Of a stretch of 64,000 nt of DNA, positions 10,688 to 63,979 are shown piece by piece (the first letter of the stretch is position 1; every line of letters starts with the position of its first letter). This DNA comes from a virus, in IMG/VR virus record IMGVR_UViG_3300020438_000001, positions 1 through 64,000 of that record, one strand, 5' to 3'. The notes under the pieces are model-generated. The model saw nothing but the letters and a program-made list of their open reading frames with translations. It had not been told where the DNA came from and made no database searches. The translations under genes were made by a program, and so were the position numbers.

Positions 10688-10695
10688 TATATTTG
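10688..10695 (+). promoter_or_regulatory. Candidate TAnnTTTG -7 box
   Basis: TATATTTG ends 5 nt before the ATG at 10701. No clear -33 TTG partner was seen. Confidence 0.25.
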
Positions 10696-10700
10696 CAAAT

Positions 10701-43095: not shown

Positions 43096-43850
43096 TATCC
43101 GATTAATCTTCTTTCTGAATTACCTAAATCTGTATAAAAAGTCTGATGTGCTGTTTGAGAAGGTTTTAGTTTAAGCCATTGTAATCTAATGTTATCCATC
43201 ATATCTAAGTTAGGCATATTAGCTGCACCTCTAGCTTGTTTAACATACCACTCCCAATCTCTCTGACTATCTCTGTAATGTGCTTCCGGGGATGCTCCTT
43301 TTCTCCAGTTAATTCTATCAAGCATCATAGTGATATAAGATTTAATAGCTCTTTTATAACTAACATGATCTGGTATCATTGGGAAACCTTCATGATCTAC
43401 TTTGATTCCTCTAAATGCTAATAAGATACATCCGGACTTAAAAGATGTAATAATAAAATTATCATTCATGTAATAACAATCTCCTCCTCCACCCAAGCTT
43501 CCTCCCATCTGCGGAAAGTTATCTTTATCTACTTCTTTACCATCAATAACATTTGTAGCTGTACTTGTAGGAGATGTAGAGATTGCACCAAAAGTACCAG
43601 TACATTGATGTAAAGGATGCCCCTTATATGAAACAGAGTCAGATAAATGTAGGTTGCAAGGAAGTGGGGCTCTGTGATCTTTAACACAAATTTCAGCTAC
43701 TAGCTCTTCATATTGCAAGCCTGCTCCAATAAGCTCTAAAGCTTCTCCTCCCCATTCTATTACATCCCAAATATCTAACTCTTCATAGATAGCGTTATCT
43801 CTATATACTCCTTCTATTATTTCATTTATTGATATAAATTTGTAAATCAT
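43095..43850 (-). CDS. Hypothetical virion-module protein
   Basis: 251-aa ORF, translationally coupled to the 1835-aa gene. Confidence 0.65.
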   Translation of the reverse strand: MIYKFISINEIIEGVYRDNAIYEELDIWDVIEWGGEALELIGAGLQYEELVAEICVKDHRAPLPCNLHLSDSVSYKGHPLHQCTGTFGAISTSPTSTATNVIDGKEVDKDNFPQMGGSLGGGGDCYYMNDNFIITSFKSGCILLAFRGIKVDHEGFPMIPDHVSYKRAIKSYITMMLDRINWRKGASPEAHYRDSQRDWEWYVKQARGAANMPNLDMMDNIRLQWLKLKPSQTAHQTFYTDLGNSERRLIG

Positions 43851-43859
43851 TAGCGTTAT

Positions 43860-44336
43860 TTATTCATAGTAATCAACTTTCTTTTCTTTTAATAACGAGG
43901 CTAATCGTCTCTTATTAGTTCTCGTTGCTTGGAAACTGTACACACTTTTGTTTTTAACTATTGCATTTTTCTTAGACCATAACCATCTGTAATTAAATCC
44001 ATCAGTATGATCATTTAAATGATATATTACTTTTTTATGTTTATTAGTTTCTTTCCAATTTATTTTTAATTTATTCTTATTTACAGAATAATTCATTTCT
44101 TTTTTTAAAATTCTTAAACTCCCTAATCTATAAGGAATTTTAAACTCTTTAGCTTTTAGAAGTATGTCATTGATAACTAGTTTATTAAACTCTTCACATA
44201 TACTTCTATATTTTTTATAACCAACCTTATAAAAATCATCATACTCTTTATAAGCTTGAACTAATGTACAACTAGTTGCCGGCTTGTTGTCTAGTAGGTC
44301 CTGGCAATCTGTCTCCATTTGCATTATTTGTTTCAT
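43860..44336 (-). CDS. Hypothetical basic (Lys-rich) protein
   Basis: 158-aa ORF that overlaps the upstream gene by 65 nt, so the start is uncertain. Its composition differs from the neighbouring structural genes. Confidence 0.5.
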   Translation of the reverse strand: MKQIMQMETDCQDLLDNKPATSCTLVQAYKEYDDFYKVGYKKYRSICEEFNKLVINDILLKAKEFKIPYRLGSLRILKKEMNYSVNKNKLKINWKETNKHKKVIYHLNDHTDGFNYRWLWSKKNAIVKNKSVYSFQATRTNKRRLASLLKEKKVDYYE

Positions 44337-44997
44337 CTCCTGGTGTTGATAATATTATATTAATTCTTTTTTGTAAAATTTGATTAGTTACTGAATTCGC
44401 CATAGATAATGAAATCGGAAAAGGGAATTCCCAGTCATACTCGCAAGCTGAAATAATTGGATTTTTTGCGCTCGTACAGTAGTTCATCTTCCATACTTCA
44501 GTAGGATCTTCGAATACTCCTGTTACCTTGACTGCTTCAATCAACATATCGCAACTTATGTATAAGTAACCATTCTTAAGATACCATCTCGCATTTGAAC
44601 TTGTGTATTTGTTATATTTGTTCCACTTGCGTCTTGTATCAGTAGTCTCTGAGAATGCTCTCGCACCATCTAAAGACTCAACAGCTAATATACTATCTCT
44701 ATTATTTCTTTGCACTGTAGTCGGGATTGGGCTAATAGACTTAAGGACATGTACCCCCATGTCTACCTCACAGCATTCAGAAGCGTCTACTGGCTCTAAA
44801 TACACGCAGTTTAGATATTCCGTGCATGAGGCCGGTACTCGAACTTTTCTACTCATCATTTGTGTGAGTAGCATTGATCTTTCCTGCATGACCCAAAATG
44901 CACATTGTCTGAAACTAACATCTGCATCGTCAGAGCTTTCTCCTCCGTATGCGATATTAATTATATCATAAACTATCTTATTTAAATTTATTGCCAT
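44272..44997 (-). CDS. Hypothetical virion-module protein
   Basis: 241-aa ORF in the operon context. Confidence 0.65.
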   Translation of the reverse strand: MAINLNKIVYDIINIAYGGESSDDADVSFRQCAFWVMQERSMLLTQMMSRKVRVPASCTEYLNCVYLEPVDASECCEVDMGVHVLKSISPIPTTVQRNNRDSILAVESLDGARAFSETTDTRRKWNKYNKYTSSNARWYLKNGYLYISCDMLIEAVKVTGVFEDPTEVWKMNYCTSAKNPIISACEYDWEFPFPISLSMANSVTNQILQKRINIILSTPGDETNNANGDRLPGPTRQQAGN

Positions 44998-48055: not shown

Positions 48056-48210
48056 TATCTTGTATTTTTTATTTTATTAATAATTCTTTTTACTTTATTT
48101 TCTAACTTCATATACTCTTTCCCTTCTTCATACCCCATATTTCTAGTTAGGTCCCAATAGTATTTGGATTTATTTTTAAACATTCTGCAAATATATGAAA
48201 AATAATTCAT
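48055..48210 (-). CDS. Hypothetical small basic protein (doubtful)
   Basis: The ORF track gives 48055-48240. The internal ATG at 48210 overlaps the stop of the 3677-aa gene by 1 nt (TAATG), which would give 51 aa. Confidence 0.35.
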   Translation of the reverse strand: MNYFSYICRMFKNKSKYYWDLTRNMGYEEGKEYMKLENKVKRIINKIKNTR

Positions 48211-51200
48211 TACACACAGTCGGATAAATATTCTTTCCATAATTCAAATAATCTATTAGCGTCCATCTGATCAATAGGAATGTCTGGTATATAAAAGTCC
48301 ATACCATAATTACTTAATGATCCTCCTTTGTATCCTGTTGTATGAGTAGGATCTCCTCCTCCCGACGCTCCCATATACATATTTGGAATTGTTGGGTCTG
48401 TTACACAATAAGCCTGCATTCCAAAAGCTGCTGGCACATCATAATAATCTGAACAACTTACATGTCCTGTTAAATTTACTGTTCCGGGTTTACCTCCAAT
48501 AGCTTGATAGATATGATAGAACATATCTCTAATAGAGTCACTGAATTGTGGAGACGGTACATTGTCTGATCCTAAATATAACATTACTCTATTTGTAGCT
48601 TCATTAAGTTGAGCAGCTCCTACATTTACATTACCATTAAGATCAATACCATATCTATAAGCATCCATATAATTATCATAATGTAATTTCCAAGTTGTTG
48701 TTAAATTACCTCCTGCGTCTAATCCATAATTATTCCAATCCGTAGCAGGCACTCCATTATCTAATGGATTACCACACGTACCTATTGGATTAGTAAATAC
48801 ATTATTTGTAACTACACCATTATTATTTGCTGTGTAATAACCAATAGTAGCTTCATCACATATAATCATTGTAATAGCACTTCTATCTCCACCTTCAAAT
48901 TCATGATAAGGATCACTAAATCCTTCATAGCCTGTTGCGTCTTGCCAAGGATTAAGTTGCGTAAACCCATCAGTTGCATAACTACCTGGTAATATTAGTA
49001 TATCTTTAACTAGACTATCCATAGTTATAAGGTAATTACCACAAGCTAGTGGCGCACCTCCCACACCATTAATTATTGTTGATTGGAATGGAATTTTATT
49101 AGCATTAGGTAATGTACTTCCAGTAAATGGATTTGGCATAGGTCCGTTAGCTCCTGCATTACCAGTTATCGGATATGTAGCCCAAGCTAACCAATCTTCA
49201 TATGGAGTACCACTACTTGAAGGAACTGTTTGTCCTGTTCCATTATAGTTAGTACAACTATGAGATACATTAGGACCAGGTATTATATATAAATGTCCTC
49301 CATATTGCGGATACTCTGCTTTTAATTGATTAAATGCTGGAATAACTACATTAGTTTTAAACTGAGATATTTTTGTTAATTTATCAAATGCGTTTCCACT
49401 GAATGTTGAAGACATATCAAATATTACATAGAGATTTGAATTACCAAAACAATCATCACATATTACTTCATTCGCCTCTAAACCAAATGGAGGATTACAA
49501 TCATCACACATGTCTGCAACCTTTTCCATTAATATTTGCATATCAGGATCTTCAATGCAGTTCACACAATCTCCTTCATATACTCCTCCGTCAGGATCAT
49601 AACTAGCACAGTTTATAGCACAATCTGCTAGTGAGCTATACTGTCCCGTTCCACCTATTACTGTAACACATCCAGCTGTAGGATCACAATCCCATGTAGT
49701 TAAGGCTCCTGTACAGAATGGATTTAGAACACAACCATTACAAGCTGCACATGCTGCTAAACCTCCGTTACCATTATTCCATGTTCCAGATCCATCTCCT
49801 GGGTCTATACATGTACTTACACCTGATGCATCAATTATACAATTCCACGATTCAACATAACATGGTTGAGTATTACTTGCTATTGCAGCATTACAATCAA
49901 CAAGAGATGCAAAAAGTCCAGAACCATTTCCAGGGTCTTGGCACGTAAGTGTTGTTGAGCCTGGCGTAAATTGTCCACAATCAAATGAAACAGGTGTATT
50001 AACACAACAGTTTGCTCCTCCGTTTGGATTATTTACAGCAGTCTGGCAATCAGTTAAAGTTGCAAAAGCTCCTGATGATCCTTGAGCTGGTACACAATTA
50101 CAAGATGTATCACAATCCCAAGAGGTTGAAGGGCAACAATCTACTCCTGTATTAGGATTTATATTAGCTAAACATTGTGCTTCACTTGGCCATCCTGCTG
50201 CCGGACCTAACTGACAATCACATGGGCCCACACACGACCATTGCTGACCTCCATTACTACAAGTTGCACATGATGCATAAGTAGTATCTACTGTAACTAT
50301 TATACATGTTAGTGGATCACAGTTTTGGCTTATATCAATATAATAACATTCTGTAGTACCATTAACTTGTACAATCTCTCCTGCTAAAAATGCATTATCT
50401 ATATCTACATTTGGACATACATTATCTATTATATCATTAGGGTCAGTACAATTTATAAGTTTATAGCAATCTAAAGGATTACCACTATCACAATCAAGGC
50501 AATCAACATATACATTATTTATTGTTACAGTTCCTGCTGGTACACACGCAGCTCCTGGAGTTGAAGAACATGGTCCACATACTCCTGGTAAATAACATGT
50601 TGAATCATCTAAACCTGGAACAGTTACTGGACCTACTAAATCTACAACTGATCCTACAACACCTGATAAATCATTTGTTACTGTTATACATGATGTACTT
50701 GATATACAATCACACCTAGAACTAGCAATAGCAAAAGATACACCTGGACCTACAATTCCGTAATGAGCATTTATAAGTGTATTAGTACCAAAGTATGGTG
50801 TACCAGGATTTGTAACTCCGGCTACTCCTAACAGTATAAGATTATCTAATAAGTCAGACCATGTAGCAAAACCAGCAGACATTCCTGCAGGAGGAGTCGT
50901 TGTACCCGGCATATAAACAGCAATAGTTCCGTTATTAGGAAATGGAGCATAGAACTCTCTATAATGTCCTCCTCCTGGAGCTGGACAGAAATCTGTACCA
51001 TTTGGCTGAATATTATTACCATATTTATGACCAACCATTACTGTATTATTCAAACCATTAGCAGGAATAGAAATAAATTGCAGAGCGTCTCCTGCGCCCC
51101 CACTTGTTCCTACCATAATTTCTGTAAGAGCAGAACAACTATCACTGCTAGGAGTACTTCCAGCACATGGGCATAATTCATAGCATAATTGATTAACTGC

Positions 51201-54200
51201 ACAACAATCTGTACAATCTAAATGATCTTGTGTTACTACTACTGCCACTGCTCCCGTTGGTGGGCATGGTTGTGGTGTACAGTCTATTTCATAACATGCT
51301 CCTGGATATAAATCTATTTCTACAACAGTACCATTACCTACAGTTCCATTACAGTACCCACTTAAATCTGTCGTCGTAACCACTGTTTGTGGTACTCCTA
51401 GTATTGTATTACATGCACATAAGTTAAGAGTATAACATTGATTAGCTTGAGTTGTACAGTCTAAACAATCTGCACCTTGTGTTGAACTAACTGGTACAAC
51501 AGGTGTTGTATCTACATAGCCACTTGGTAATGAAGGTAGATATTGTACATCCCAACATCTTAATCCTGCTGGAGTACCATCATCCCAATCCATTATTCCT
51601 GGTGCAACAGGAGTTAAATTTGGAAAGTCTGTAGAATGATATACTAAAGGAGTACATCCTGTTAAACAGTATTCATCCTCACATGCATAATTTGCACTTG
51701 GATTTCCATAAATACCACAAAAAGCTCTTTGCTCATATATACCACTTGCTCCTGCAAGACCTGTTGGGAATACTGATGAGAACTGAGCTGTTGTAGCCCA
51801 CGGTCCCATTAAAGCATCTGAATTAGCAGTTCCACATACTACATTTCCACAGGTAGAATTACCTGCTCCTTGATAACAAGGACATCCACAAGGAGCTCCT
51901 GTTAACGCAGTACATAATGCTTGATCCCAAAATATATCATGACCTAATCCAAATGCATGCCCAAGCTCGTGAGTTACAACTAATTGTAAATCAAAACTAT
52001 CAGCAACTACTGGATCTGGAACACCCATACCTTTTCTCCAATCCTCATTGGCATCAATCATCATAAAGCTATTCCAACTAGTATTTCTTACTCCGGCTCC
52101 TCCATTACCTGGAACCATATTTGGGTCTGGGCTATAAGCATAAGCAAGAACGCCTAACTTACTTCCTAAACTAGAACAACTAGTATTACATGGCCCATAA
52201 CCAAATCTAAAATCTCCTATATTACTAACTCCATTCATATCTGTATAAGTACCATTAGCTTGAGCGGTTGCTATTCCTATTGCTGGTGTTATACCTGCTG
52301 CAGCACTTTCTACGCCTACATCTGTAAAGGTTACTGTAAGGTCCGCTCCATAACCACAAGTTGTATTAAATCTACCTTCAATTACTTCTTTCATTTTTTG
52401 GAAACATCCTGCAATTTCAGCTTTAAACTGAGCAATATCTATTGTATATGTTTTTGCATAAACTGCACATCCCGGAGTTCTTCCGTTTGGATTTGCTGTT
52501 GTTGGACCTTGTTCAAAACTTAAAGTAACTCCTGCCCCACTTTGTCCTGGAACTTGTGTGCCTGGTGCACAGAAACTATAAGTAAAATCTAATTGTTGTG
52601 CTACACCTGGTACTAATTGAGTTCCTAAATTCTGAACTGCATCTACTAAGCATTGCATTCTTTGAGGTCCTGGAGCTTGACATGTAGGAGACCAAGACTT
52701 ACCGTTAGCAACCATTGCTGCTGGTTGATTAGCCGGATCTGATATATCGCATAAATTAGTTACAGCTCCCCCTCCTGTGCAATCACATTCTGTAATTTCA
52801 AATCCATCTTGTCCTCCTGGGCTACCAACACAATTTGCATCTGAACAATCTGGATAATTATTAGTTATTAGAATTGCTTGTATATTAGCTGGATCACAGT
52901 CACAAGGTCCCCATAAATATGTAGGGAATTTTGTTCCCATTACTCTACCTCCTATATTATAGATAGTAGCACTCATACCAAGTGGGCCCATTCCTCCATT
53001 ACCATCTATTTGGCTTGCAATATTTGCTCCAATAGGATCTTCTGGATCTGCAATAACTCCAATACATGCACTTATATTTCCTGCAGGTCCAGGAGCAGTA
53101 CCTACTTTTCCTGGATATAGATCGTCAGTATTTACATTTTGCATAGCGAAACCAATCATACCATTAGGCATTAAAGCTATATCACCTATACTCGGTCCAT
53201 CTTCACCTGGCCAGTATGGATATTTCCATCCATTTACTTGTGTATCATCTGGAGCTCCTCTTGTAGTCCAATTATCATAAACTGGGTCAGGAAGTAAATC
53301 TGACCAACTATCAACGGTCATTCTTTTAATTGTACCTGCTGATTGTAAAGAACTTGGTACAGCATCATTTGCCCAATACACATGTGTTGAGTTTTGTGTA
53401 ATAGCAATCTGACCAGCGCTATCACCCCAGTTTCCACCAGAGCCTCCAAATTGTCCAGTACCTATAGCTCCTAGCATTTGATAAACACCATTCCAAGCTC
53501 CTCCATTCCAAGCATTTGTCTGTGTTAAAACAGGATCTCCTGGTCCTGTCATTGTTCCATTAGACATATTTAGTGACCAAGCTACAACCATACAACCATC
53601 ATTAGCTCCGGCTGTATTATCTACCCAGATACCACAATGAGCAAATACTTTATTATTAGGACCTACTAACATTTCTCCTGAACACTGTTGCTTTAATGTG
53701 AATGTTTGAAGACCGTTATTTAGTGCAAAATCTAAAGCTGTAAACTCTACTCCCCAAACTCCGTTTACAATAGGAATACCGAATACAGCTTGATTCACAT
53801 AATCAAATGAACTACTCATTTTCTTTCTAAAGTAAAAATAGAAATTACCTGTATTATCTGTGTTTGTTACACACATATGTTCAGTAGAAATTCCATTTGC
53901 AATAAGTACTGTATTTTTAGTTGCTGATACTACTCGTCCTTTACCGCCATTGAGAGTCATATCTACAATAGACCAATATATTGGACCATCCTTAACTGTA
54001 TTACATACAACATACCATTGATGGTATAATCCACCTGTACTTCCTCCGTCTGTTTTAGGGAAATATAATGCTCCCTGTTGTGGGAATACTCTACCTTCAT
54101 AACCTCCAGTTCCAAGAGGGTCTCCTCCTGATAGTCCTGCTGCAGCTCCTGTATCATCAAGCATAAGAGTATGCGTTGAATCATATATTAAATGTCCATC

Positions 54201-57200
54201 TGTATAGAACATTATATCACCTTTAGCATAAGCAGTACCATTAATAGTAGCATTCTGGTTAGAACAACAAGTTGCTCCTCCCATTGTACTATAATCAGTA
54301 GCACCAACACTGTTATAATCAGCCATTAATGATGCCCCTGAAAGATTTGGAAGCGGCATTCCAGTACTATAATCTATTCCTAATTGATCTCCAAAGAACA
54401 TCTGTGTTCCATGTAGAGAGTTTCCGCTTGGACATATTTGATAACAAAGAGGACTTCCAATTAAAGTAACAGCGTCTGTACCCACAATAGCTGCATCTCC
54501 TGGAGATATAGTTATATCTGGACCTGCTCCCGGTACACATGTAACTAATAAGTCACAATCAGTTGGGCATGGGTTTGGAGTAGTTGGACAATCCGCACAA
54601 TTAGTTCCTATAGGCGAACCTATAGTTGTTGAGTTTAATACTGTTACATCTATATTTGGAAGTGCTTGTGAACAATCTAATCCTCCCGGTTGTGATACCG
54701 TCCAACATCCTGGGTAAACAATACCATTTACTGTTACCTCTGCTTCAATTACTTGTCCTATATCTCCCGCTACTACACCTGATCCTAATCCTACAATCTG
54801 AGTTGTTATATAACCTTGTCCGCAACAGTGTGTTAATGCAAAACAAGTACCACTAGAATTACAAGTTGTACAATCAGCATATGTAGTAACAATAGCTCCT
54901 GTAGGATATGCTATTGCGCTTGGACCTCCAATAGAAATAGCTTTCCAACAACCTGCCTGAGCGACCCCTCCTAATGTAACATCATGGGCATCAGCTGTTC
55001 CTAAGAAAGGAATAAACGCTAAACTAGTTGCATAATCTACTAGCAGATTAGCTCCAGTGTCACAATGTTCTAATATAATATGAAAATTACATTCACCACA
55101 ATTTGTAGGTGTACTAGCTATAGTTACAGCTACTTGAGGAACATTACAACTAGGATCTATCGCAACTTCTCTACAGAAGTTTTCTCCAGATAACTGGACA
55201 GTCTGTCCTACCAAACCTGGAATTAAAGGAGATAGTATAGCTGTTGTATATATTACATCAGTTGGATCACCACATTTTGTTAGTTTATAACAAACTATAG
55301 GTGTTGTACAAGCAGTACAATCATTAAAAGGTCCGGCAGCTACAGTAAAAGGAGCTGGACTAACACAAGCTATACTATTATCTACCGTCCAACATTCTCC
55401 TGCAGCGTCTTCTACTACACTACCTACATAGGCAGTTAAATTAGATTGGCTATAAACTACTGCACCTGAAGTACAATTAGTTAGAACAAAACAACAATTT
55501 GCAGTAGAAACATTACTAAGACAATCAGCACAATCTGTATATTGAACAATAGCAGGATTTACATTATCTGGTGATTGTAACCACTTTTCACATAAATCAT
55601 TTACAGTCATTCCGTTTGGATGTTGATTCCAAACAGTTGTATTAGTAATAGGATTTAATAAAGTTATTTGATTTACCTCAGCTGTTCCACTTGAATTTAA
55701 TTCTCTTAATTTTAATGTATAAGTAGTAGTAGGACCTACATCAGCTAAAGCAGATATTACAAATAATCTAGTTGTAGAACCTCCCGCTCTTACTGACTCA
55801 ATACCACAAGTAAACTCTCCAGCTGTATAAGCACATATTACTTCTAAGTCTGCTACTAAAACAGCAGCTCCAGTAGCATCATCAATAGTCATTAAATCAT
55901 TTAAACCTCCTGAATTAGTACTATCTCCTATTAACCAATAATCTCCTGAGTTAAAATCAACCGATATATCATGTCCTACAGAGATACCACCATTTTGATT
56001 AGCCGCTCCTGCAAGAGTTATACTTGTTAAAGTTTGAACATATTTAGCAAAATAAGCTACACCTGCAAACTGATAAGCAACAACAAGATGTCCTGTAGCA
56101 GTATAATCATAATCAGCACATGTCCATTCTACAAAACCAGTATTGAATGTTACTGGAGGACTTTCATATCCGTTTATTGCAGAGAACCAAATGTTATTAT
56201 TTGTTTGAGTTACAGTAAGATTATTATGTTTATCAAAAGCAATATCATTTAAATTACCTTGACTATATACTACACCTGAATTAGCTGTAAGTGCTGGAAT
56301 AGATGTTGTATTATTATTCCAGTTATCTATTTCTATAACATTATTATTACCACCATCCATAGCAATATTAAACGACATAAGTATTTGCTGATTAGGAGTA
56401 AAGGCAACAGAGCATTCTGGAGTACTTCCATTAGAACTAACAGAATAATACCCTCCATTTACTACAGCATCTGTAGTTACTGCTGGTAAATTTAATGGTC
56501 CTTGCGCATAACCGTTAGAACCTATAGCACAGCATGGTAAGAAACCAGCACAATCATTATCGACATCATCTAGACAATTTCTACAGCTACTGTATGTAGA
56601 AGCTAAAGCAGAATATATATCACAAGAAGTAAGATTTGTATGATATGTTTTTGTTCCTGGAGGAACACAGCTAAAACATCCTGCTATATTTAGATTATCC
56701 CATGTCCATATTATTGTATTACCACCTGAACCAGCATTACAATAATTTTCAACTTGAGTATAGTTAACGTCACCACTTGATAGTTTTAAAGGGAATTGGC
56801 TCCAATTACGATAAGAACTATCAAATGCCGTTCCTTGAGATTCTTCCGGCCACTGAAAAGCTCCTGGAGTAGTATTATTATTTCCTATAAGAGTAGTTGC
56901 TCCAGTACCCTGATCTATTTCATAAGTTTTTTGTGAGCCTGCTGCACCACATGTACCTCTTAAAGTATAACCATTTACACCCGCACCGGTATATTGTAAG
57001 AATATATCGTTATAATCAAATGGGGCTGAATTAGCTAATAATGTATATGTAGCTCCATTTATATCATATGCAACAATTCTTGGACCTATTGCAATATACA
57101 TATACCCATTTGTTCCTGCAACCGCTGGATCTATATCTCCAGGTAAAGCACCCGCAATAGAAACTGGTGTCATGCCTGTAAGGGCACTTCCTGAGAAAGT

Positions 57201-59243
57201 AGCAAGATCTATTTCTATTCCTGGTGAATAGTTAGTTACTGTATTAGTACTAGTATTTATTAAACCAAAACTATATTTTTCATTTACCCCTGGCGCTTTA
57301 CCTAAGAACCAATGATATTTACAAAGATGAGTTACATCAATTTCAGTACTACCTACAGGCACAAGTCCCACAGTATTTGTAATTGCAGTATAACTGTCGT
57401 AAGTTGCATTAGCTGCAATATTAGTTGAAGTTGATACTGTGTTGTAATCAGGGTGAAATACTTGATAAGCTAATGTATTTGATGTAGGAGAATCCCATAT
57501 GTATGCCATTGCTGTATACATGTTGAAAGATATTCCTCTAACATTAGTAACTTGTAAGCCAGTAATTAAGTTCATACGAACTTCAGATACCCTTACATCA
57601 GTTTTCCATAATTGTTTATTATTATCTACGGTGTATGTACCTACAGAATCACATCTATCAACCAATATAAATGGTGTAGAAGCGACGCCAGTACATATGT
57701 GTTGCGCTGGGGCACCGTATCTTATCATAGTAGCTCCTGGTGTAGGAGTACCTTCAAAATCAAAAGTTGCTGTTTGAGGAGCACTAGCACCATTAATTAC
57801 TCCTATATTGAGTGTAGAAGGTCCAGATGTAGGATCTCCATAAATTTCCCAGTAATCAGTTGACCAAGCTACAGCAGCTGGTACAACTGCTAAGTTCATT
57901 ATATCTATTTGTTGTGGACACAAGAATAAAATACGATCATTGACGTGATCCATCCACATACCTGCAATTATTCTTGATGGACCATTTTGTCCATTCCATA
58001 TATTAGCCCCAGCTCCATCTTCTATATGTCCATAATTAACCGGAGATGCATTAGTCATAATATTTGCAGCGTCTACTACTACATACCTCATCTTTAATTC
58101 ACCTGCAGGAACTGAACTTCCATCAAACCAACCATGATAAATTGTAGCATTATCATAAGTAGAGTCTGGAGAAAAACAACTATGCATACTAAAATATCTA
58201 CTTGGAGTTCCAGGTATTTGTGGCCATGCAATAGGCCCTCTATCTAGTTGTGGGACTGCCGCAAGAGCAGCACCAAAAGCAGAAGCATCCAATATGGTAC
58301 CAGTACTAGCATCTAGATTAAAAACTTGTATAGCAGCCACATCATTAGGCATACCTGGATCACCTACATACTCTTGTATAATAGTAGCAAATTTAAATTT
58401 ATTATGTCCAGCACTAGTAAGATCCATATCTGCTTTAGTAATACTAAATACACCCATCCTACCAGCATCATTATTTGCAGTAATTGCTCCTATTACTGTA
58501 GTTACTGGACTTCCAGTAACTGATGTACCACCATATAGTTCAGGAGCTCCCATAGAACTAATAGTTGAAAATCTATAAACACTGTACTTATTGTTAGCAG
58601 TTACACCGCCCCAATTATTATTTTTAATAAGAAGTCCAGCAGCGTCCTTACCATCTACAGTACAGCAAAATGAAACCATACGTCCATCACATATCGAATC
58701 TTGTAACTCACCGGTTAATGGCCCGAATGATTGGCTAATATTTAAATGGTTGAAAAATTTACCTAAACCACCATTACCATTCATATCAATAACACCAGCT
58801 CTAATACCATTATACATACCATTAAAGAAAGCCCAATATATTGCTCCTGTTGAATTACCTGCACCACTAGCAATACCGCCAGTTACAGAAGCAGATAAGG
58901 TGTCAGAAACTTTTATAAATGTAACTGCTTGAGGGGCAGCTCTATGAGCTCCGGTTTTATTATTTGAAGTAGTAGCTTCAGCACCTAACATAAGGCCTCC
59001 GGTAGAGTCCCATATTTGATAACCGTCTGAATAGAATAGTATATCTCCATCAGCATATACAGTTGTTGATCCTCCTGTTCCATATGTTACATTTGTGTCA
59101 GCTACTATGGTGCAACTACTATAAGGAGCATCAGCAAACCCAATAGTTCCTGGAACAAAATCCATTGCTACTGGGGTTTGAGTTGTATCTACTTTAACAC
59201 TTCTTCCTGTGAATTGTTTTTCAAAATTATCTGCTGTACTCAT
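48210..59243 (-). CDS. Giant (3677 aa) Cys-rich multidomain fibre/adhesin-like virion protein with an embedded metzincin protease domain
   Basis: Uninterrupted 11-kb ORF. Its repeat families, metzincin motif and internal duplication are listed as separate features and findings. Confidence 0.85.
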   Translation of the reverse strand: MSTADNFEKQFTGRSVKVDTTQTPVAMDFVPGTIGFADAPYSSCTIVADTNVTYGTGGSTTVYADGDILFYSDGYQIWDSTGGLMLGAEATTSNNKTGAHRAAPQAVTFIKVSDTLSASVTGGIASGAGNSTGAIYWAFFNGMYNGIRAGVIDMNGNGGLGKFFNHLNISQSFGPLTGELQDSICDGRMVSFCCTVDGKDAAGLLIKNNNWGGVTANNKYSVYRFSTISSMGAPELYGGTSVTGSPVTTVIGAITANNDAGRMGVFSITKADMDLTSAGHNKFKFATIIQEYVGDPGMPNDVAAIQVFNLDASTGTILDASAFGAALAAVPQLDRGPIAWPQIPGTPSRYFSMHSCFSPDSTYDNATIYHGWFDGSSVPAGELKMRYVVVDAANIMTNASPVNYGHIEDGAGANIWNGQNGPSRIIAGMWMDHVNDRILFLCPQQIDIMNLAVVPAAVAWSTDYWEIYGDPTSGPSTLNIGVINGASAPQTATFDFEGTPTPGATMIRYGAPAQHICTGVASTPFILVDRCDSVGTYTVDNNKQLWKTDVRVSEVRMNLITGLQVTNVRGISFNMYTAMAYIWDSPTSNTLAYQVFHPDYNTVSTSTNIAANATYDSYTAITNTVGLVPVGSTEIDVTHLCKYHWFLGKAPGVNEKYSFGLINTSTNTVTNYSPGIEIDLATFSGSALTGMTPVSIAGALPGDIDPAVAGTNGYMYIAIGPRIVAYDINGATYTLLANSAPFDYNDIFLQYTGAGVNGYTLRGTCGAAGSQKTYEIDQGTGATTLIGNNNTTPGAFQWPEESQGTAFDSSYRNWSQFPLKLSSGDVNYTQVENYCNAGSGGNTIIWTWDNLNIAGCFSCVPPGTKTYHTNLTSCDIYSALASTYSSCRNCLDDVDNDCAGFLPCCAIGSNGYAQGPLNLPAVTTDAVVNGGYYSVSSNGSTPECSVAFTPNQQILMSFNIAMDGGNNNVIEIDNWNNNTTSIPALTANSGVVYSQGNLNDIAFDKHNNLTVTQTNNNIWFSAINGYESPPVTFNTGFVEWTCADYDYTATGHLVVAYQFAGVAYFAKYVQTLTSITLAGAANQNGGISVGHDISVDFNSGDYWLIGDSTNSGGLNDLMTIDDATGAAVLVADLEVICAYTAGEFTCGIESVRAGGSTTRLFVISALADVGPTTTYTLKLRELNSSGTAEVNQITLLNPITNTTVWNQHPNGMTVNDLCEKWLQSPDNVNPAIVQYTDCADCLSNVSTANCCFVLTNCTSGAVVYSQSNLTAYVGSVVEDAAGECWTVDNSIACVSPAPFTVAAGPFNDCTACTTPIVCYKLTKCGDPTDVIYTTAILSPLIPGLVGQTVQLSGENFCREVAIDPSCNVPQVAVTIASTPTNCGECNFHIILEHCDTGANLLVDYATSLAFIPFLGTADAHDVTLGGVAQAGCWKAISIGGPSAIAYPTGAIVTTYADCTTCNSSGTCFALTHCCGQGYITTQIVGLGSGVVAGDIGQVIEAEVTVNGIVYPGCWTVSQPGGLDCSQALPNIDVTVLNSTTIGSPIGTNCADCPTTPNPCPTDCDLLVTCVPGAGPDITISPGDAAIVGTDAVTLIGSPLCYQICPSGNSLHGTQMFFGDQLGIDYSTGMPLPNLSGASLMADYNSVGATDYSTMGGATCCSNQNATINGTAYAKGDIMFYTDGHLIYDSTHTLMLDDTGAAAGLSGGDPLGTGGYEGRVFPQQGALYFPKTDGGSTGGLYHQWYVVCNTVKDGPIYWSIVDMTLNGGKGRVVSATKNTVLIANGISTEHMCVTNTDNTGNFYFYFRKKMSSSFDYVNQAVFGIPIVNGVWGVEFTALDFALNNGLQTFTLKQQCSGEMLVGPNNKVFAHCGIWVDNTAGANDGCMVVAWSLNMSNGTMTGPGDPVLTQTNAWNGGAWNGVYQMLGAIGTGQFGGSGGNWGDSAGQIAITQNSTHVYWANDAVPSSLQSAGTIKRMTVDSWSDLLPDPVYDNWTTRGAPDDTQVNGWKYPYWPGEDGPSIGDIALMPNGMIGFAMQNVNTDDLYPGKVGTAPGPAGNISACIGVIADPEDPIGANIASQIDGNGGMGPLGMSATIYNIGGRVMGTKFPTYLWGPCDCDPANIQAILITNNYPDCSDANCVGSPGGQDGFEITECDCTGGGAVTNLCDISDPANQPAAMVANGKSWSPTCQAPGPQRMQCLVDAVQNLGTQLVPGVAQQLDFTYSFCAPGTQVPGQSGAGVTLSFEQGPTTANPNGRTPGCAVYAKTYTIDIAQFKAEIAGCFQKMKEVIEGRFNTTCGYGADLTVTFTDVGVESAAAGITPAIGIATAQANGTYTDMNGVSNIGDFRFGYGPCNTSCSSLGSKLGVLAYAYSPDPNMVPGNGGAGVRNTSWNSFMMIDANEDWRKGMGVPDPVVADSFDLQLVVTHELGHAFGLGHDIFWDQALCTALTGAPCGCPCYQGAGNSTCGNVVCGTANSDALMGPWATTAQFSSVFPTGLAGASGIYEQRAFCGIYGNPSANYACEDEYCLTGCTPLVYHSTDFPNLTPVAPGIMDWDDGTPAGLRCWDVQYLPSLPSGYVDTTPVVPVSSTQGADCLDCTTQANQCYTLNLCACNTILGVPQTVVTTTDLSGYCNGTVGNGTVVEIDLYPGACYEIDCTPQPCPPTGAVAVVVTQDHLDCTDCCAVNQLCYELCPCAGSTPSSDSCSALTEIMVGTSGGAGDALQFISIPANGLNNTVMVGHKYGNNIQPNGTDFCPAPGGGHYREFYAPFPNNGTIAVYMPGTTTPPAGMSAGFATWSDLLDNLILLGVAGVTNPGTPYFGTNTLINAHYGIVGPGVSFAIASSRCDCISSTSCITVTNDLSGVVGSVVDLVGPVTVPGLDDSTCYLPGVCGPCSSTPGAACVPAGTVTINNVYVDCLDCDSGNPLDCYKLINCTDPNDIIDNVCPNVDIDNAFLAGEIVQVNGTTECYYIDISQNCDPLTCIIVTVDTTYASCATCSNGGQQWSCVGPCDCQLGPAAGWPSEAQCLANINPNTGVDCCPSTSWDCDTSCNCVPAQGSSGAFATLTDCQTAVNNPNGGANCCVNTPVSFDCGQFTPGSTTLTCQDPGNGSGLFASLVDCNAAIASNTQPCYVESWNCIIDASGVSTCIDPGDGSGTWNNGNGGLAACAACNGCVLNPFCTGALTTWDCDPTAGCVTVIGGTGQYSSLADCAINCASYDPDGGVYEGDCVNCIEDPDMQILMEKVADMCDDCNPPFGLEANEVICDDCFGNSNLYVIFDMSSTFSGNAFDKLTKISQFKTNVVIPAFNQLKAEYPQYGGHLYIIPGPNVSHSCTNYNGTGQTVPSSSGTPYEDWLAWATYPITGNAGANGPMPNPFTGSTLPNANKIPFQSTIINGVGGAPLACGNYLITMDSLVKDILILPGSYATDGFTQLNPWQDATGYEGFSDPYHEFEGGDRSAITMIICDEATIGYYTANNNGVVTNNVFTNPIGTCGNPLDNGVPATDWNNYGLDAGGNLTTTWKLHYDNYMDAYRYGIDLNGNVNVGAAQLNEATNRVMLYLGSDNVPSPQFSDSIRDMFYHIYQAIGGKPGTVNLTGHVSCSDYYDVPAAFGMQAYCVTDPTIPNMYMGASGGGDPTHTTGYKGGSLSNYGMDFYIPDIPIDQMDANRLFELWKEYLSDCV
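49602..50240 (-). repeat. Five tandem ~40-aa W-x-C / SL-x-DC Cys repeats (aa about 3002-3214)
   Basis: The five repeats begin WSCVGPCDC..., SWDCDTSCNCVPAQGSSGAFATLTDCQTAV, SFDCGQF...GNGSGLFASLVDCNAAI, SWNCIIDASGVSTC... and TWDCDPTAGCVTVIGGTGQYSSLADCAINC. Confidence 0.75.
50255..51690 (-). repeat. Second array of ~65-80-aa C[YF]xLxxC...C[WY]x[VI]...CxxC modules (aa about 2520-2995)
   Basis: Module starts: EYCLTGC, QCYTLNLC, LCYELCPC and DCYKLINC. Mid motifs: LRCWDVQ, GACYEID, STCYLPG and TECYYID. Module ends: DCLDCT, DCTDCC, DCLDCD and SCATCS. Confidence 0.7.
51793..52256 (-). other. Metzincin (matrixin/M10-like) zinc protease domain (aa about 2330-2484)
   Basis: IGDFRFGYG, GVLAYAYSP, FMMIDANEDW, VVTHELGHAFGLGHD (HExxHxxGxxH, nt 51936-51980) and the Met-turn SDALMGPW. 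Confidence 0.75.
54420..55496 (-). repeat. First array of C[YF]xLxxC...C[WY]x[VI]...CxxC modules (aa about 1250-1608)
   Basis: Module starts: CCFVLTNC, VCYKLTKC, FHIILEHC and TCFALTHC. Mid motifs: GECWTVD, NFCREVA, AGCWKAI and PGCWTVS. Module ends: DCTACT, NCGECN, DCTTCN and NCADCP. Confidence 0.7.
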
Positions 59244-59255
59244 TTATTATATTTT

Positions 59256-59915
59256 TTATCCTGGTTCGTTAAAACATTGAAGTTCTACCCAATGCCCACT
59301 TTCAAAAAATCCAGCTCCCGCTGCATTTGAGTTAAAAGCGGAAATGTAATATTTACCTCTTCCTGTTTGTATTGCTCCTGGGCCTCCTCCCATGAATTTT
59401 ACTATATCTCCTCTATCATATGTAAGAACTGGGTCCCATTCTAAACTTCCTCTAGCTTCCCATGCTACTTTTAAATTACCACAAACACTCCATCCTCCTG
59501 GAGTTATTCCGTATATACCTGACCAACATGGAGCCCAACCATCTATAGCATCAAAACAATTTGAACCTCCAGGTTGTGGAAGAGCGTTTTGCCATCTTAA
59601 GTATAAGAATTCTCCGATATTAGCATTTGGTCTTGGGAATATTTTAACAACTTGTCCTGTAGTATAGGCTGTAGTTTCATCCCAGTATATTTTTCCATCT
59701 GTTACCCACTCATCATAACAGTCACATGGAAGAGGTGCATAACATTCTATCATCTCAATGTATGCACCTAAAAGTTTTAAATTACACATTTCGTCTTTGC
59801 ATAATTTGCCTAGACGCTGTTTATCAGTTACTTCTGCTGCTTTGGTTGCAAAACAGCATTTTAATTTATTTAACCTATATATTAGGTCCTCTTGTGTAAT
59901 TGGTTTAAATCCCAT
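59256..59915 (-). CDS. Cys/Trp-rich protein with two CBM5/12-like (chitin-binding-type) repeats
   Basis: WDETTAYTTGQVVKIF...EFLYLRWQN and WDPVLTYDRGDIVKF...GKYYISAFNSN fit the W..x..Y..GD.V...G..Y pattern. The N-terminal helical region is Cys-rich (KCCFATK...). Confidence 0.5.
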   Translation of the reverse strand: MGFKPITQEDLIYRLNKLKCCFATKAAEVTDKQRLGKLCKDEMCNLKLLGAYIEMIECYAPLPCDCYDEWVTDGKIYWDETTAYTTGQVVKIFPRPNANIGEFLYLRWQNALPQPGGSNCFDAIDGWAPCWSGIYGITPGGWSVCGNLKVAWEARGSLEWDPVLTYDRGDIVKFMGGGPGAIQTGRGKYYISAFNSNAAGAGFFESGHWVELQCFNEPG

Positions 59916-60817
59916 TAATCTTTAATTATATATGCTAAGGTTACAAACTGTGGTAATATATTGAAAGGGACTCCTTGTGGAAAATTAAGACTATCTGCTG
60001 TACCATCTCCTGAATTACCAATCAAAGTAACATTATGAGAGTGAGCTCCACAATTAGTATCTGTATCTCCAGTACAATCATTAGTACCATCAAAAGGTCT
60101 AGCTGTAGTCCATTCAAGAGGGTCACCACCAATTCTATTTCTACTCTGAGGTCTATCTACAGATCCCCACCCTGGTGAACCATCTACTTCAAAAAATCCT
60201 CTCCATCTATGAGCGTGTGCACCACTAGTAGCCATTAGAGCAGTATATGATCCTATATTATGAACGTGTGCAGGTATATTACTTTTAGAAAGTGAAACTG
60301 TAGTGCTACCCCCTGCAGCTAAAATTGCACCAAAGTTTGGATCTCCAGCTCCATAAGACGCTATAAATTTTCCTGATAAATTTGGTACTCCTGGAGCACC
60401 ACCATCACAAAGTGTCCACCCAAGAGGAATAGAACCTAAAGGGCCAGACCACATTACAATTATACCAGAAGGTAAGAGTGCACCTTGCTGAATTACAGAT
60501 TGGATTATATTTCCGGCATTAATAACTTGATTACAAGGCGTAGGTGTAGGACCAGTAGTGACTATTACATCACCCTGTACATTTCCATCAGTACCATCTG
60601 AAATATAAACATCCATAAGGGTACAACCATCTGTACCATCTGCTCCGTTTATACCATCAGTACCATTTACTCCTGGAGGCCCCTGTGGACCTTGGGGACC
60701 CTGGGGGCCCGTATCTCCTACAGGAATATCACATGAGTTTGCTTCTGCACAGGTTGTACAGTCACAAGCACAAGATTGTGGATTAACACATCCATTGTTA
60801 CAATTATTACATGCCAT
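59915..60817 (-). CDS. Tail fibre protein: Cys-knot-like N-terminus, collagen-like triplets, phage tail-collar domain
   Basis: There are 9 Cys in the first 30 aa. G-X-Y triplets span aa 34-64. GIIVMWSGPLGSIPLGWTLCDGG...PNLSGKF matches the tail-collar signature (W/F-x-G...P-x-GW-x-x-CDG...P-[DN]-L-x-G). Confidence 0.75.
   Translation of the reverse strand: MACNNCNNGCVNPQSCACDCTTCAEANSCDIPVGDTGPQGPQGPQGPPGVNGTDGINGADGTDGCTLMDVYISDGTDGNVQGDVIVTTGPTPTPCNQVINAGNIIQSVIQQGALLPSGIIVMWSGPLGSIPLGWTLCDGGAPGVPNLSGKFIASYGAGDPNFGAILAAGGSTTVSLSKSNIPAHVHNIGSYTALMATSGAHAHRWRGFFEVDGSPGWGSVDRPQSRNRIGGDPLEWTTARPFDGTNDCTGDTDTNCGAHSHNVTLIGNSGDGTADSLNFPQGVPFNILPQFVTLAYIIKD
60626..60718 (-). repeat. Collagen-like G-X-Y repeat (10 triplets) forming a local GC-rich island
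   Basis: GDTGPQGPQGPQGPPGVNGTDGINGADGTDG. The DNA reads ggaggcccctgtggaccttggggaccctgggggccc. Confidence 0.9.
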
Positions 60818-63647: not shown

Positions 63648-63979
63648 TATTTTTTACTTGCTTTAAGTTTAGACTTTAACGATAATACAATGTCCTGATT
63701 TTTTGGATCTTTTAGGTATAAACACGCAGCCTCTAAGTCGTGGCCTATCGCACTATCACCAAACATATAATGTCCGCCTCTAATACGTAATGCATTTATA
63801 GCTACTAGATCTTCAATTAGTACTCTTATTTTAAAGTCAGGCATAGCCATAGTCTCATTAAATAGTGCTGGATCCTTATCTAAAATATCTGCAAGTGTAT
63901 TTTCAATTAATGTATCAGAAGCATTAGCTGCTTTTTTACCCATTAATTTTAATACATTTCGCATTTCAGCTGAGGTCAT
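63647..63979 (-). CDS. Hypothetical head-module protein
   Basis: 110-aa ORF in the operon context. Confidence 0.55.
   Translation of the reverse strand: MTSAEMRNVLKLMGKKAANASDTLIENTLADILDKDPALFNETMAMPDFKIRVLIEDLVAINALRIRGGHYMFGDSAIGHDLEAACLYLKDPKNQDIVLSLKSKLKASKK

What the first reader, a model, noticed from the sequence alone, without database searches (positions are those of the whole stretch)
51793..52256. Complete metzincin (matrixin-like) protease signature embedded in the 3677-aa virion protein
Residues about 2330-2484 contain, in matrixin order:
- IGDFRFGYG (compare the DI-x-I-x-F strand)
- GVLAYAYSP (compare G-x-LAHAF-x-PG)
- FMMIDANEDW (compare HFDxDExW)
- the extended zinc site VVTHELGHAFGLGHD (HExxHxxGxxH, His2425/Glu2426/His2429/His2435, nt 51936-51980)
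- a Met-turn, SDALMGPW

A secreted-type metalloprotease fold sitting in the middle of a phage fibre/adhesin is unusual. Possible roles are cleaving host surface proteins, an S-layer or matrix during adsorption, or autoprocessing the giant protein.
Basis: partly seen in the sequence, partly recalled or inferred. Interest (0 to 1): 0.75.

Follow-up and report, generated by a model that had tools for sequence, protein, structure and literature searches.

The report
Zinc protease inside giant phage tail protein
A 3,677-residue tail-module protein of an uncultured marine crAss-like phage carries a conserved, apparently active matrixin-like zinc protease domain, which suggests the virus cuts a protein layer on its host's surface the way other phages cut sugars.

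Summary
This is the only HExxH in a protein with 42 His (chance expectation about 1e-5).

Evidence that it is an M10-type metzincin:
- Pfam Peptidase_M10 scores above its gathering cut-off.
- A 26-sequence family profile hits MMP catalytic domains in the PDB at E=2e-17.
- An AlphaFold model (pLDDT 72) retrieves only MMP catalytic domains as its top 26 Foldseek matches.
- The three zinc His, the catalytic Glu and the Met-turn Met are invariant in all 26 aligned homologues.

The domain is larger than stated (about aa 2185-2515). It is not a strict matrixin: there is no structural-zinc site and no cysteine switch, Asp follows the third His, and a roughly 35-aa Cys-rich insert precedes the Met-turn.

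The window is a Tara Oceans crAss-like phage. The giant gene lies between tail ring-protein genes, in the slot where Cellulophaga phage phi14:2 has its virion pectate lyase. About 14 orthologues keep the domain, which lies within their most conserved block.

The most likely role is a virion-borne protease acting on host surface protein. That role is inferred, not shown. I rate it a new variant of a known kind.

The parts
48210..59243 (-). Giant ORF of 3,677 aa: 160 Cys, net charge about -215, no TM segment. It is the carrier of the protease domain and a presumed tail fibre or appendage protein.
   Evidence: the exact same protein occurs on 12 Tara and other ocean contigs
51699..52691 (-). Full metzincin (Peptidase_M10-like) catalytic unit, aa about 2185-2515: N-terminal helix, strand 1 LDFTYSF, helix A, strands 2-5, active-site helix, Met-turn, C-terminal helix ending in IYG.
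52572..52592 (-). First beta-strand LDFTYSF (aa 2218-2224).
52194..52220 (-). Strand IGDFRFGYG (aa 2342-2350). Its Gly and Arg are invariant and its Asp nearly invariant in the 26-sequence family alignment.
52128..52154 (-). Strand GVLAYAYSP (aa 2364-2372). Y2368 occupies the position of the MMP structural-zinc His.
52038..52070 (-). Strand SFMMIDANEDW (aa 2392-2402). M2395 occupies the position of the second MMP structural-zinc His. The W and the following R are nearly invariant.
51939..51971 (-). Zinc-binding and catalytic motif HELGHAFGLGH (H2425, E2426, H2429, G2432, H2435), followed by D2436.
   Evidence: HExxHxxGxGHD is kept in all 11 related IMG/VR loci
51822..51938 (-). Clade-specific Cys-rich insertion between the third His and the Met-turn (aa 2436-2474). 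It is absent from the small homologues and from MMPs, and has low model confidence.
51798..51815 (-). Met-turn ALMGPW (aa 2477-2482). M2479 is invariant in all 26 aligned sequences.
59205..59231 (-). N-terminal motif DNFEKQFTG (aa 5-13), conserved across the family ahead of a hypervariable region. It may be a virion-docking peptide (inference only).
62946..63647 (-). crAss tail ring protein 3/4 gene, homologue of phi14:2 g089. It forms the upstream border of the fibre cassette.
59915..60817 (-). Collagen-like tail collar fibre gene, separated from the giant ORF only by the 219-aa ORF 59256-59915.
44272..44997 (-). crAss tail ring protein 2 gene, homologue of phi14:2 g074. It forms the downstream border of the cassette.
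43095..43850 (-). crAss tail ring protein 1 gene, homologue of phi14:2 g072.
37588..43095 (-). Crassvirus muzzle protein gene (PF25731, E 1e-145).

Best explanation
The window is part of an uncultured marine crAss-like podovirus (Crassvirales-type tail module) from Tara Oceans. Its 3,677-aa gene sits in the variable tail-fibre cassette and most likely encodes a giant, disulfide-rich, very acidic tail appendage.

A zinc endopeptidase domain of the metzincin clan, Peptidase_M10-like, is embedded in the most conserved central block of that protein. It has a complete active site: three zinc-binding His, a general-base Glu, and a Met-turn.

The most likely mechanism is as follows. The domain is displayed on the virion and hydrolyses a proteinaceous component of the host envelope during adsorption. 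Candidates are a surface-layer or adhesin coat, or the protein receptor itself. Cleavage would let the short tail and muzzle reach the outer membrane. This is the proteolytic counterpart of the polysaccharide-degrading domains carried by tail fibres of other crassviruses. Receptor-destroying activity that frees progeny from cell debris would use the same chemistry.

Shown here: the sequence motifs, family membership, predicted fold, conservation and purifying selection, and tail-module synteny.

Inferred: presence in the virion, catalytic activity, the substrate, and the step of infection at which it acts.
For: Domain identity:
- Pfam Peptidase_M10 scores above its gathering cut-off, and 24 of 26 family members hit it.
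- All 36 database proteins retrieved with the family profile carry PF00413.
- The family profile hits MMP-20, MMP-3, MMP-12 and other MMP catalytic domains in the PDB at E 2e-17 to 2e-14.
- The AF2 model has pLDDT 72.3 and pTM 0.77. Its Foldseek top 26 PDB hits are all MMP catalytic domains, probability 0.95-1.00, target-normalised TM 0.31-0.60.
- In the viral structure library the best hits are an unnamed homologue with 41% identity, then baculovirus, nudivirus and ascovirus MMPs.

Likely active:
- H2425, E2426, H2429, H2435 and M2479 are invariant in 26 sequences that are only 27-50% identical.
- HExxHxxGxGHD is kept in all 11 related viral loci.
- The domain lies in the most conserved block of the protein across 14 orthologues.
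- It is also the most conserved part in comparison with the closest orthologue: 84-93% identity against 71% overall.
- dN/dS is 0.24 for the domain against 0.38 for the whole gene.
- GC3 is the same as in the rest of the gene, so this is not a recent insertion.

Tail location:
- The gene is flanked by crAss ring 3/4, ring 2, ring 1 and muzzle genes, and lies one small ORF away from a collagen-like tail collar fibre gene.
- The flanking genes are homologous to phi14:2 g090/g089 and g074/g073/g072. In phi14:2 the interval between them holds MS-verified virion tail proteins, including a pectate lyase.
- crAss001 tail fibres are annotated with polygalacturonase, hydrolase and CHAP domains and dock on the tail hub (PMC10172136).
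- Synteny is identical in five related contigs.
- The protein has no TM segment, 160 Cys and a strongly acidic composition, which fits an extracellular protein.
Against: - There is no direct evidence that the protein is in the virion, that the domain binds zinc or cleaves anything, or what the host is.
- The rest of the protein matches no Pfam, PHROG or PDB family, so 'fibre' rests on gene position alone.
- The N-terminal likeness to the hub-docking peptide of crAss001 gp22 is not statistically supported.
- The model omits the first strand. It has two low-confidence loops, and its superposition on MMPs is only moderate (query-normalised TM about 0.37, rmsd 6-8 A).
- A central position in a 3,677-aa chain is also what one would expect of an autoprocessing domain.
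- A latency mechanism (prodomain or inhibitor) was not identified.
Confidence: 0.5

Rival explanations
1. The metzincin is a maturation or autoprocessing protease. It cuts the giant precursor, or neighbouring virion proteins, into functional pieces during or after assembly, and has no host substrate.
For: - The domain sits in the middle of a 3,677-aa chain within its most conserved block.
- Protease domains that process the fibre itself are known in phages (Peptidase_S74 intramolecular chaperones; own knowledge).
- In one related contig the gene is split into 3,228 + 474 aa, so the C-terminal part can at least be encoded separately.
Against: - Known fibre-processing domains are C-terminal serine-type chaperones that are removed. 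No metzincin is known to act this way (own knowledge).
- No conserved cleavage motif was identified.
- The closest relatives outside phages are small membrane-anchored or flagellin-embedded proteins, where a trans-acting extracellular protease is the natural reading.
Confidence: 0.17
2. The protease acts on the environment rather than on the host cell. It would digest proteinaceous marine gels, particles or mucus so that virions can move through or detach from organic matrices where particle-attached hosts live.
For: - Marine origin: Tara Oceans scaffolds.
- MMP-like enzymes are matrix-degrading by precedent.
- The protein carries many repeated Cys-rich modules that could be adhesive.
Against: - The gene lies in the host-recognition (fibre) cassette. 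Its hypervariable N-terminal and mid regions look like host-range determinants.
- No mucin-binding or carbohydrate-binding domain was detected.
Confidence: 0.1
3. The domain is a catalytically dead or non-proteolytic scaffold that is retained as a binding or structural module.
For: - The canonical MMP structural-zinc ligands are lost (Y2368, M2395).
- A long Cys-rich insertion lies next to the active-site helix.
- No activity data exist.
Against: - All five catalytic-site residues are invariant across sequences only 27-50% identical and in all 11 viral loci. Pseudoenzymes usually lose such residues.
- dN/dS is lowest in this region.
Confidence: 0.07
4. The protein is an ejected cargo or effector rather than an external fibre. 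The protease would work in the periplasm or cytoplasm after ejection, for example on cell-wall peptides or host defence proteins.
For: - Crassviruses eject large cargo proteins (PMC10172136).
- A prophage-derived metzincin in Listeria affects cell-wall sensitivity (PMC8235301).
Against: - Cargo genes in crassviruses lie downstream of the muzzle gene. Here that block holds the 1,105-, 1,131- and 5,520-aa ORFs, whereas this gene is upstream in the fibre cassette.
- 160 Cys and a 380-kDa multi-domain chain fit poorly with unfolding and passage through the tail.
- No TM segment was found.
Confidence: 0.05

Closest known systems
Matrix metalloproteinase catalytic domains (MEROPS M10A; e.g. MMP-11 1hv5, MMP-3, MMP-20 2jsd)
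   Same: - HExxHxxGxxH zinc site, Met-turn, and the order of strands and helices.
- Best sequence-profile and fold matches.
- Pfam PF00413 scores above its cut-off.
   Different: - No structural-zinc His pair (Y2368, M2395).
- No PRCGxPD cysteine-switch prodomain and no hemopexin domain.
- Asp instead of Ser after the third His.
- 43 residues, including a Cys-rich insert, between the third His and the Met, where MMPs have about 8.
- Extra N-terminal helix, and inserts in the strand 2/3 and S-loop regions.
- Embedded in a 3,677-aa phage protein.
Unnamed family of small metagenomic M10-like proteins (P0008, P0021, P0022 etc.), including two flagellins with the domain in their hypervariable region (P0009, P0011)
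   Same: - Closest non-phage relatives (27-41% identity).
- Shared TYSF first strand, NGYGxNLTVxF, IGDFRIGM, VLAYAY/LAHGY, DWR, HExGHALGxGH, and SxM.
- Part of this family has likewise lost the structural-zinc His residues.
   Different: - These are 250-525-aa proteins with an N-terminal membrane anchor or flagellin arms.
- They have MMP-like short spacing to the Met-turn and no Cys-rich insert.
- None is characterised or named.
Enzyme-bearing tail fibres and tailspikes of crassviruses (crAss001 gp22 polygalacturonase-like, gp25 hydrolase, gp26 CHAP; phi14:2 g086 pectate lyase)
   Same: - Same genomic slot in the tail module (phi14:2).
- Same logic: an enzymatic domain carried on a virion appendage that meets the host surface first.
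   Different: - Those enzymes target polysaccharide or peptidoglycan, whereas this one is a protein-cleaving metzincin.
- No sequence similarity to them.
- This protein is 3-4 times longer.
Virus-encoded MMPs of baculoviruses, nudiviruses, ascoviruses and entomopoxviruses
   Same: Viral genomes encoding M10 catalytic domains. After an unnamed homologue at rank 1, they fill ranks 2-9 and 12 of the viral fold matches.
   Different: - They are insect-virus proteins that act on host tissue (own knowledge).
- They are 281-789-aa proteins, not domains of a giant protein.
- Sequence identity is only 9-19%.
Flagellinolysin (proteolytic flagellin, Eckhard et al. 2017, PMC5595980)
   Same: Same concept: a metalloprotease domain inserted into a polymeric extracellular structural protein, so that the structure becomes enzymatic.
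   Different: Flagellinolysin is a gluzincin related to M9 collagenases, with Glu as the third zinc ligand. It is not a metzincin, and it is bacterial, not viral.
Listeria prophage-remnant metzincin/TIMP-like pair (PMC8235301)
   Same: A metzincin of phage origin that is linked to cell-envelope effects.
   Different: It is a free secreted protein with a cognate inhibitor lipoprotein and is not part of a virion protein. I saw only the abstract.

Membership tests
Metzincin clan (MA(M)) | Extended zinc-binding motif HExxHxxGxxH/D | tested here: met
   HELGHAFGLGH at aa 2425-2435. H, E, H and H are invariant and G nearly invariant in 26 homologues. The motif is kept in all 11 related loci.
Metzincin clan (MA(M)) | Met-turn with conserved Met downstream of the third His | tested here: met
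   ALMGPW; M2479 is invariant in all 26 aligned sequences.
Metzincin clan (MA(M)) | Catalytic-domain fold: mixed beta-sheet, active-site helix, C-terminal helix | tested here: met
   AF2 model with pLDDT 72.3 and pTM 0.77. The Foldseek top 26 PDB hits are all MMP catalytic domains, probability 0.95-1.00, target-normalised TM up to 0.60. This is a prediction, not a solved structure, and the model lacks strand 1.
Metzincin clan (MA(M)) | Zinc-dependent endopeptidase activity | not testable with these tools
   Needs purified protein.
Pfam Peptidase_M10 (PF00413) | Score at or above the curated gathering cut-off (24 bits) | tested here: met
   27.5 bits on the whole protein and 36-36.7 bits on the isolated domain. 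24 of 26 family members match.
Matrixins sensu stricto (M10A, MMPs) | Structural zinc site (His of LAHAF strand, His of HFD strand) | tested here: not met
   Y2368 and M2395 occupy these positions, according to the alignments to MMP-20 and MMP-3 and the residue look-up.
Matrixins sensu stricto (M10A, MMPs) | Cysteine-switch prodomain PRCGxPD | tested here: not met
   There is no PRCG or RCGxPD anywhere in the 3,677 aa. A different latency device cannot be excluded.
Matrixins sensu stricto (M10A, MMPs) | Ser after the third His and short (about 8-residue) spacing to the Met-turn | tested here: not met
   D2436 follows the third His. There are 43 residues with a Cys-rich insert between H2435 and M2479. 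The expected MMP values are from own knowledge.
Serralysins (M10B) | HExxHxxGxxHP, SxMSY Met-turn with Tyr ligand, C-terminal RTX GGxGxD repeats | tested here: not met
   Asp, not Pro, follows the third His. The Met-turn is LMGPW. There is no GGxGxD in the protein. NCBIfam Zn_serralysin gives no hit for the window domain.
Adamalysins/reprolysins (M12B) | HExxHxxGxxHD plus family profile and fold match | tested here: inconclusive
   Asp after the third His is present. Reprolysin_5 scores 25.9-27.7 bits on the isolated domain against a cut-off of 27, and 22.4 bits on the whole protein. ADAMTS fold matches reach only E>0.1. M10 matches are consistently stronger.
Crassvirus tail fibre / appendage protein | Gene located in the tail module among ring, hub and fibre genes | tested here: met
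   Ring 3/4, ring 2, ring 1 and muzzle genes flank it. The synteny is anchored by homology to phi14:2 g090/g089 and g074-g072 and is conserved in five related contigs.
Crassvirus tail fibre / appendage protein | N-terminal peptide that docks on the tail hub (as crAss001 gp22 residues 1-26) | tested here: inconclusive
   The family has a conserved N-terminal motif D[FY]xK..TG. However, an HMM of it does not retrieve gp22 or any phi14:2 fibre protein.
Crassvirus tail fibre / appendage protein | Physical presence in the virion | not testable with these tools
   The phage is uncultured and there is no proteomics or EM.
Flagellinolysin-type gluzincins | HExxH with a distal Glu as third zinc ligand | tested here: not met
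   The third ligand here is His, within HExxHxxGxxH, and there is a Met-turn. Flagellinolysin is described as a gluzincin in PMC5595980.

The most novel reading that the evidence does not exclude
This would be the first tailed-phage virion appendage that carries a matrixin-like protease as its 'depolymerase'. It would define a clade of marine crAss-like phages that breach or destroy a proteinaceous host surface layer or receptor by proteolysis rather than by glycan cleavage. The Cys-rich insert and the flanking conserved blocks would form a new substrate-recognition or latency device.
Probability: 0.4. Interest if true: 0.75.

Novelty: new variant of a known kind. Interest (0 to 1): 0.6.

Why it matters
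Virion-borne enzymes described for phages are almost all glycan depolymerases or peptidoglycan hydrolases. A conserved, apparently active metzincin on the tail of a widespread group of ocean crAss-like phages would add proteolysis to the set of adsorption tools. It would also point to a protein layer or protein receptor on the unknown host, probably a marine Bacteroidota.

The domain is compact and can be expressed, so this is directly testable. It also identifies an unnamed branch of the M10 family. That branch lacks the structural zinc site and is shared by phage giants, small membrane-anchored proteins and two flagellins.

None of the roughly 14 orthologues has any annotation, and none matches any sequenced phage in the reference collection searched.

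Tried and rejected
- **Single-sequence AlphaFold.** The domain gave pLDDT 33 and was useless. Only the alignment-based model was used.
- **Single-sequence PDB search.** phmmer of the domain returned only weak antibody Fab hits (E>=1e-3) over a Gly/Ser/Pro-rich stretch. I judged them spurious.
- **Reference phage collection.** blastn and tblastn of the domain and of aa 1001-3677 against 50,697 GenBank phage records found nothing.
- **Word-indexed protein search.** The search with the single domain found nothing. The exhaustive representative search was needed.
- **Species-representative genomes.** Two scans found no close relative, only short generic zinc-motif matches. One attempt failed because the alignment had no conserved stretch.
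- **Host-range clue from small homologues.** The contig carrying P0021 was uninformative, and cluster look-ups gave no names.
- **Rest of the giant protein.** Pfam on ten overlapping segments, PHROGs, and PDB searches with three single segments and one family profile recognised nothing. A family search with the C-terminal block found nothing beyond fragments of the same family.
- **Likeness to crAss001 gp22.** I noticed by eye that the N-terminus resembles the hub-docking peptide of gp22 (QEDYRK..W..GAATP). An HMM test did not support this, so it is kept only as a lead.
- **Flagellinolysin as the family of the flagellin relatives.** Rejected, because that family is a gluzincin.
- **BLASTP self-comparison.** It found no significant internal repeats. 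phmmer found one weak repeat pair, aa 50-163 against aa 1663-1771.
- **Literature.** Searches for a metzincin or matrixin in crAss-like or other phage tails found no report.
Full report
**Observation**

The minus strand carries one uninterrupted ORF, 48210-59243, of 3,677 aa. The motifs sit at these positions:
- IGDFRFGYG, aa 2342-2350
- GVLAYAYSP, aa 2364-2372
- FMMIDANEDW, aa 2393-2402
- VVTHELGHAFGLGHD, aa 2422-2436 (nt 51936-51980)
- SDALMGPW, aa 2475-2482

This is the only HExxH in the protein. His is rare (42 residues). The expected number of HExxHxxGxxH motifs in a protein of this composition is about 1.3e-5, and none appeared in 5,000 shuffles.

**What the domain is**

Sequence evidence:
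- Pfam Peptidase_M10 (matrixin) is the top hit, at 27.5 bits on the whole protein and 36-36.7 bits on the isolated domain, against a gathering cut-off of 24. Reprolysin-type models score lower, at or below their cut-offs.
- An exhaustive search of 1.84 billion representative proteins gave 29 relatives. Six are giant proteins with the domain at the same relative position (85% identity for the closest, 47-52% for the rest). There is also a set of 250-525-aa metagenomic proteins at 27-41% identity.
- In a 26-sequence alignment the invariant columns are a Gly and an Arg of the third strand, H2425, E2426, H2429, H2435 and M2479. These include the complete metzincin catalytic set.
- A profile of that alignment retrieves only proteins with a precomputed PF00413 hit. 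It matches MMP-20, MMP-3, MMP-12 and other MMP catalytic domains in the PDB at E 2e-17 to 2e-14. 24 of the 26 members hit PF00413 individually.

Fold evidence:
- Single-sequence AlphaFold failed (pLDDT 33).
- With the alignment the model reached pLDDT 72.3 and pTM 0.77. Helices and strands follow the MMP order.
- Foldseek against the PDB returned MMP catalytic domains as all of the top 26 hits, the best being MMP-11 (1hv5) at E 1.7e-4 with target-normalised TM 0.58. ADAMTS domains appeared only at E>0.1.
- Against predicted viral structures, the best hit was an unnamed 41%-identical viral protein. It was followed by baculovirus, nudivirus and ascovirus MMPs.

- The domain starts further upstream. 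A helix (aa 2195-2207) and a first strand LDFTYSF (aa 2218-2224) are conserved between the phage giants and the small homologues. The unit is about aa 2185-2515 (nt 51699-52691).
- It is not a strict matrixin. The two His residues of the MMP structural-zinc site are Tyr2368 and Met2395.
- No PRCGxPD cysteine switch exists anywhere in the protein.
- Asp follows the third His.
- The phage clade has a roughly 35-residue Cys-rich insertion between the third His and the Met-turn. This insertion is absent from the small relatives.
- Serralysin hallmarks are absent: no Pro after the third His, no SxMSY, no RTX repeats.
- No NCBIfam model covers it above threshold.

It is best described as a member of an unnamed branch of Peptidase_M10.

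**Genomic setting**

The window is a crAss-like phage.
- The 1,835-aa ORF at 37588-43095 is a crassvirus muzzle protein (PF25731, E 1e-145).
- Ring proteins 1, 2 and 3/4 are at 43095-43850, 44272-44997 and 62946-63647.
- A collagen-like tail collar fibre gene (59915-60817) lies one small ORF upstream of the giant gene.
- The plus-strand half encodes PolA, helicases, primase and rIIA/rIIB.
- The exact protein occurs on 12 ocean metagenome contigs, including an 87-kb Tara scaffold.
- The muzzle protein is only about 26% identical to those of gut crAss-like phages, Flavobacterium phages and Cellulophaga phage phi14:2, so this is a distant marine lineage. All known hosts of its relatives are Bacteroidota.

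Homology anchors the synteny to phi14:2, for which virion proteomics exists:
- Window ORFs 63647-63979 and 62946-63647 match g090 and g089.
- ORFs 44272-44997, 43860-44336 and 43095-43850 match g074, g073 and g072.
- In phi14:2 the interval between these anchors holds MS-verified virion tail proteins, including the 1,275-aa pectate lyase g086.

The giant gene therefore occupies the tail-fibre and enzyme cassette. In crAss001 the fibre proteins gp22, gp25 and gp26 are annotated as polygalacturonase-like, hydrolase and CHAP, and gp22 docks on the tail hub (PMC10172136). Eleven IMG/VR loci carry orthologues of 3,232-3,843 aa. In the five loci examined, gene order around the giant gene is identical.

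**Evidence for function**

- Every orthologue keeps HExxHxxGxGHD.
- Across 14 orthologues, aa 2100-2750 is the most conserved block. Residues 1-1000 and 1800-2100 are the most variable, as expected if the variable parts determine host range and the central block performs a constant task.
- Against the closest orthologue (71% overall identity) the domain region is 84-93% identical.
- dN/dS is 0.24 for the domain against 0.38 for the whole gene.
- GC3 of the domain equals that of the gene, so the domain is long resident.
- The protein has 160 Cys, net charge about -215 and no TM segment. This fits an extracellular, disulfide-stabilised appendage and does not fit a protein that must be unfolded and ejected.

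**Mechanism and rivals**

My best reading (about 0.5) is a virion-displayed zinc endopeptidase. It would cleave a proteinaceous host surface component or protein receptor during adsorption, and possibly act as a receptor-destroying enzyme at release. That would make it the proteolytic analogue of fibre-borne glycan depolymerases. The domain identity and the tail-module position are shown. Virion presence, catalysis and substrate are inferred.

Rivals:
- Autoprocessing of the giant precursor: 0.17.
- Digestion of environmental protein matrices: 0.10.
- An inactive binding scaffold: 0.07. This is disfavoured by the invariant catalytic residues.
- An ejected effector: 0.05. This is disfavoured because cargo genes lie downstream of the muzzle gene, and by the protein's composition.

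**Comparison and novelty**

Viral M10 enzymes are known in insect viruses. Enzyme-bearing fibres are known in crassviruses. A protease inserted into an extracellular filament is known from flagellinolysin, but that enzyme is a gluzincin (PMC5595980). I found no report of a metzincin in a phage tail protein, and no homologue in 50,697 GenBank phage records. The rest of the giant protein matches nothing known. I rate this a new variant of a known kind, with interest 0.6. The case is solid bioinformatically, genuinely unusual for phage biology, and easy to test, but it has no functional data.

**Limits**

- The structural model omits strand 1 and has two low-confidence loops. Its superposition on MMPs is moderate.
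- 'Fibre' rests on synteny alone.
- The resemblance of the N-terminus to the gp22 docking peptide did not pass an HMM test.
- The host is unknown.

Noticed in passing
window 14218-30780 (-): A 5,520-aa ORF lies downstream of the muzzle gene and two ORFs of about 1,100 aa. It has a weak RNA_pol_Rpb1_2 hit around a DFDID motif at aa 3325. It is probably a fused virion RNA polymerase or cargo polyprotein, much larger than the separate RNAP proteins of phi14:2 and crAss001.
   Followed up: partly
proteins P0009 and P0011 (metagenomic, not in the window): Two flagellins carry an M10-like metzincin domain in their hypervariable region (flagellin N and C arms by NCBIfam). This differs from the published gluzincin flagellinolysins and may be a second, undescribed class of proteolytic flagellin.
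   Followed up: partly
window 48210-59243 (-), aa 1256, 1323, 1472, 2608, 2692, 2931: At least six copies of a roughly 70-aa Cys-rich module begin with C[YF]xLxxC. No Pfam or PDB match was found.
   Followed up: partly
window 48213-49406 (-), aa 3280-3677: The C-terminal 400-residue block is strongly conserved in the family, with about 90 invariant columns (for example DPYHEFEGGD, GGGDPT.TTGY.GGSLS.Y). It has no match in Pfam, the PDB or named proteins.
   Followed up: yes
window 56244-59243 and 52944-53843 (-), aa 1-1000 and 1800-2100: Two hypervariable regions occur across orthologues, and phmmer finds a weak internal repeat (aa 50-163 against aa 1663-1771). They may be duplicated receptor-binding modules.
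   Followed up: partly
window 45002-46144 (-): A 380-aa protein combines an N-terminal NUMOD/I-HmuI-like domain with a calcineurin-like phosphoesterase (PHROG 'DNA repair exonuclease') and sits inside the tail module. It is highly conserved in all related contigs and lies in the same position as phi14:2 g075, so it is a fixed gene rather than a mobile endonuclease.
   Followed up: partly
window 59915-60817 (-) and 59256-59915 (-): A collagen-like (GPQ repeat) tail collar fibre with a Cys-rich N-terminus is followed by a Cys-rich 219-aa protein with a weak CBM_5_12 hit. Both lie directly upstream of the giant gene.
   Followed up: no
locus L009 3173-14261: In one related contig the giant gene is split into 3,228-aa and 474-aa ORFs that overlap by about 20 nt. 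This could be a frameshift, an assembly error or a genuine split.
   Followed up: no
window 8217-11711 (+): rIIA and rIIB homologues are present in this crAss-like phage. The best GenBank phage match for rIIA is the gut crAss-like IAS virus at 28% identity.
   Followed up: no
window 43860-44336 and 44272-44997 (-): The ring-2 gene and the downstream IHF-like gene (homologue of phi14:2 g073) overlap by 65 nt. The same overlap is conserved in the related contigs.
   Followed up: no
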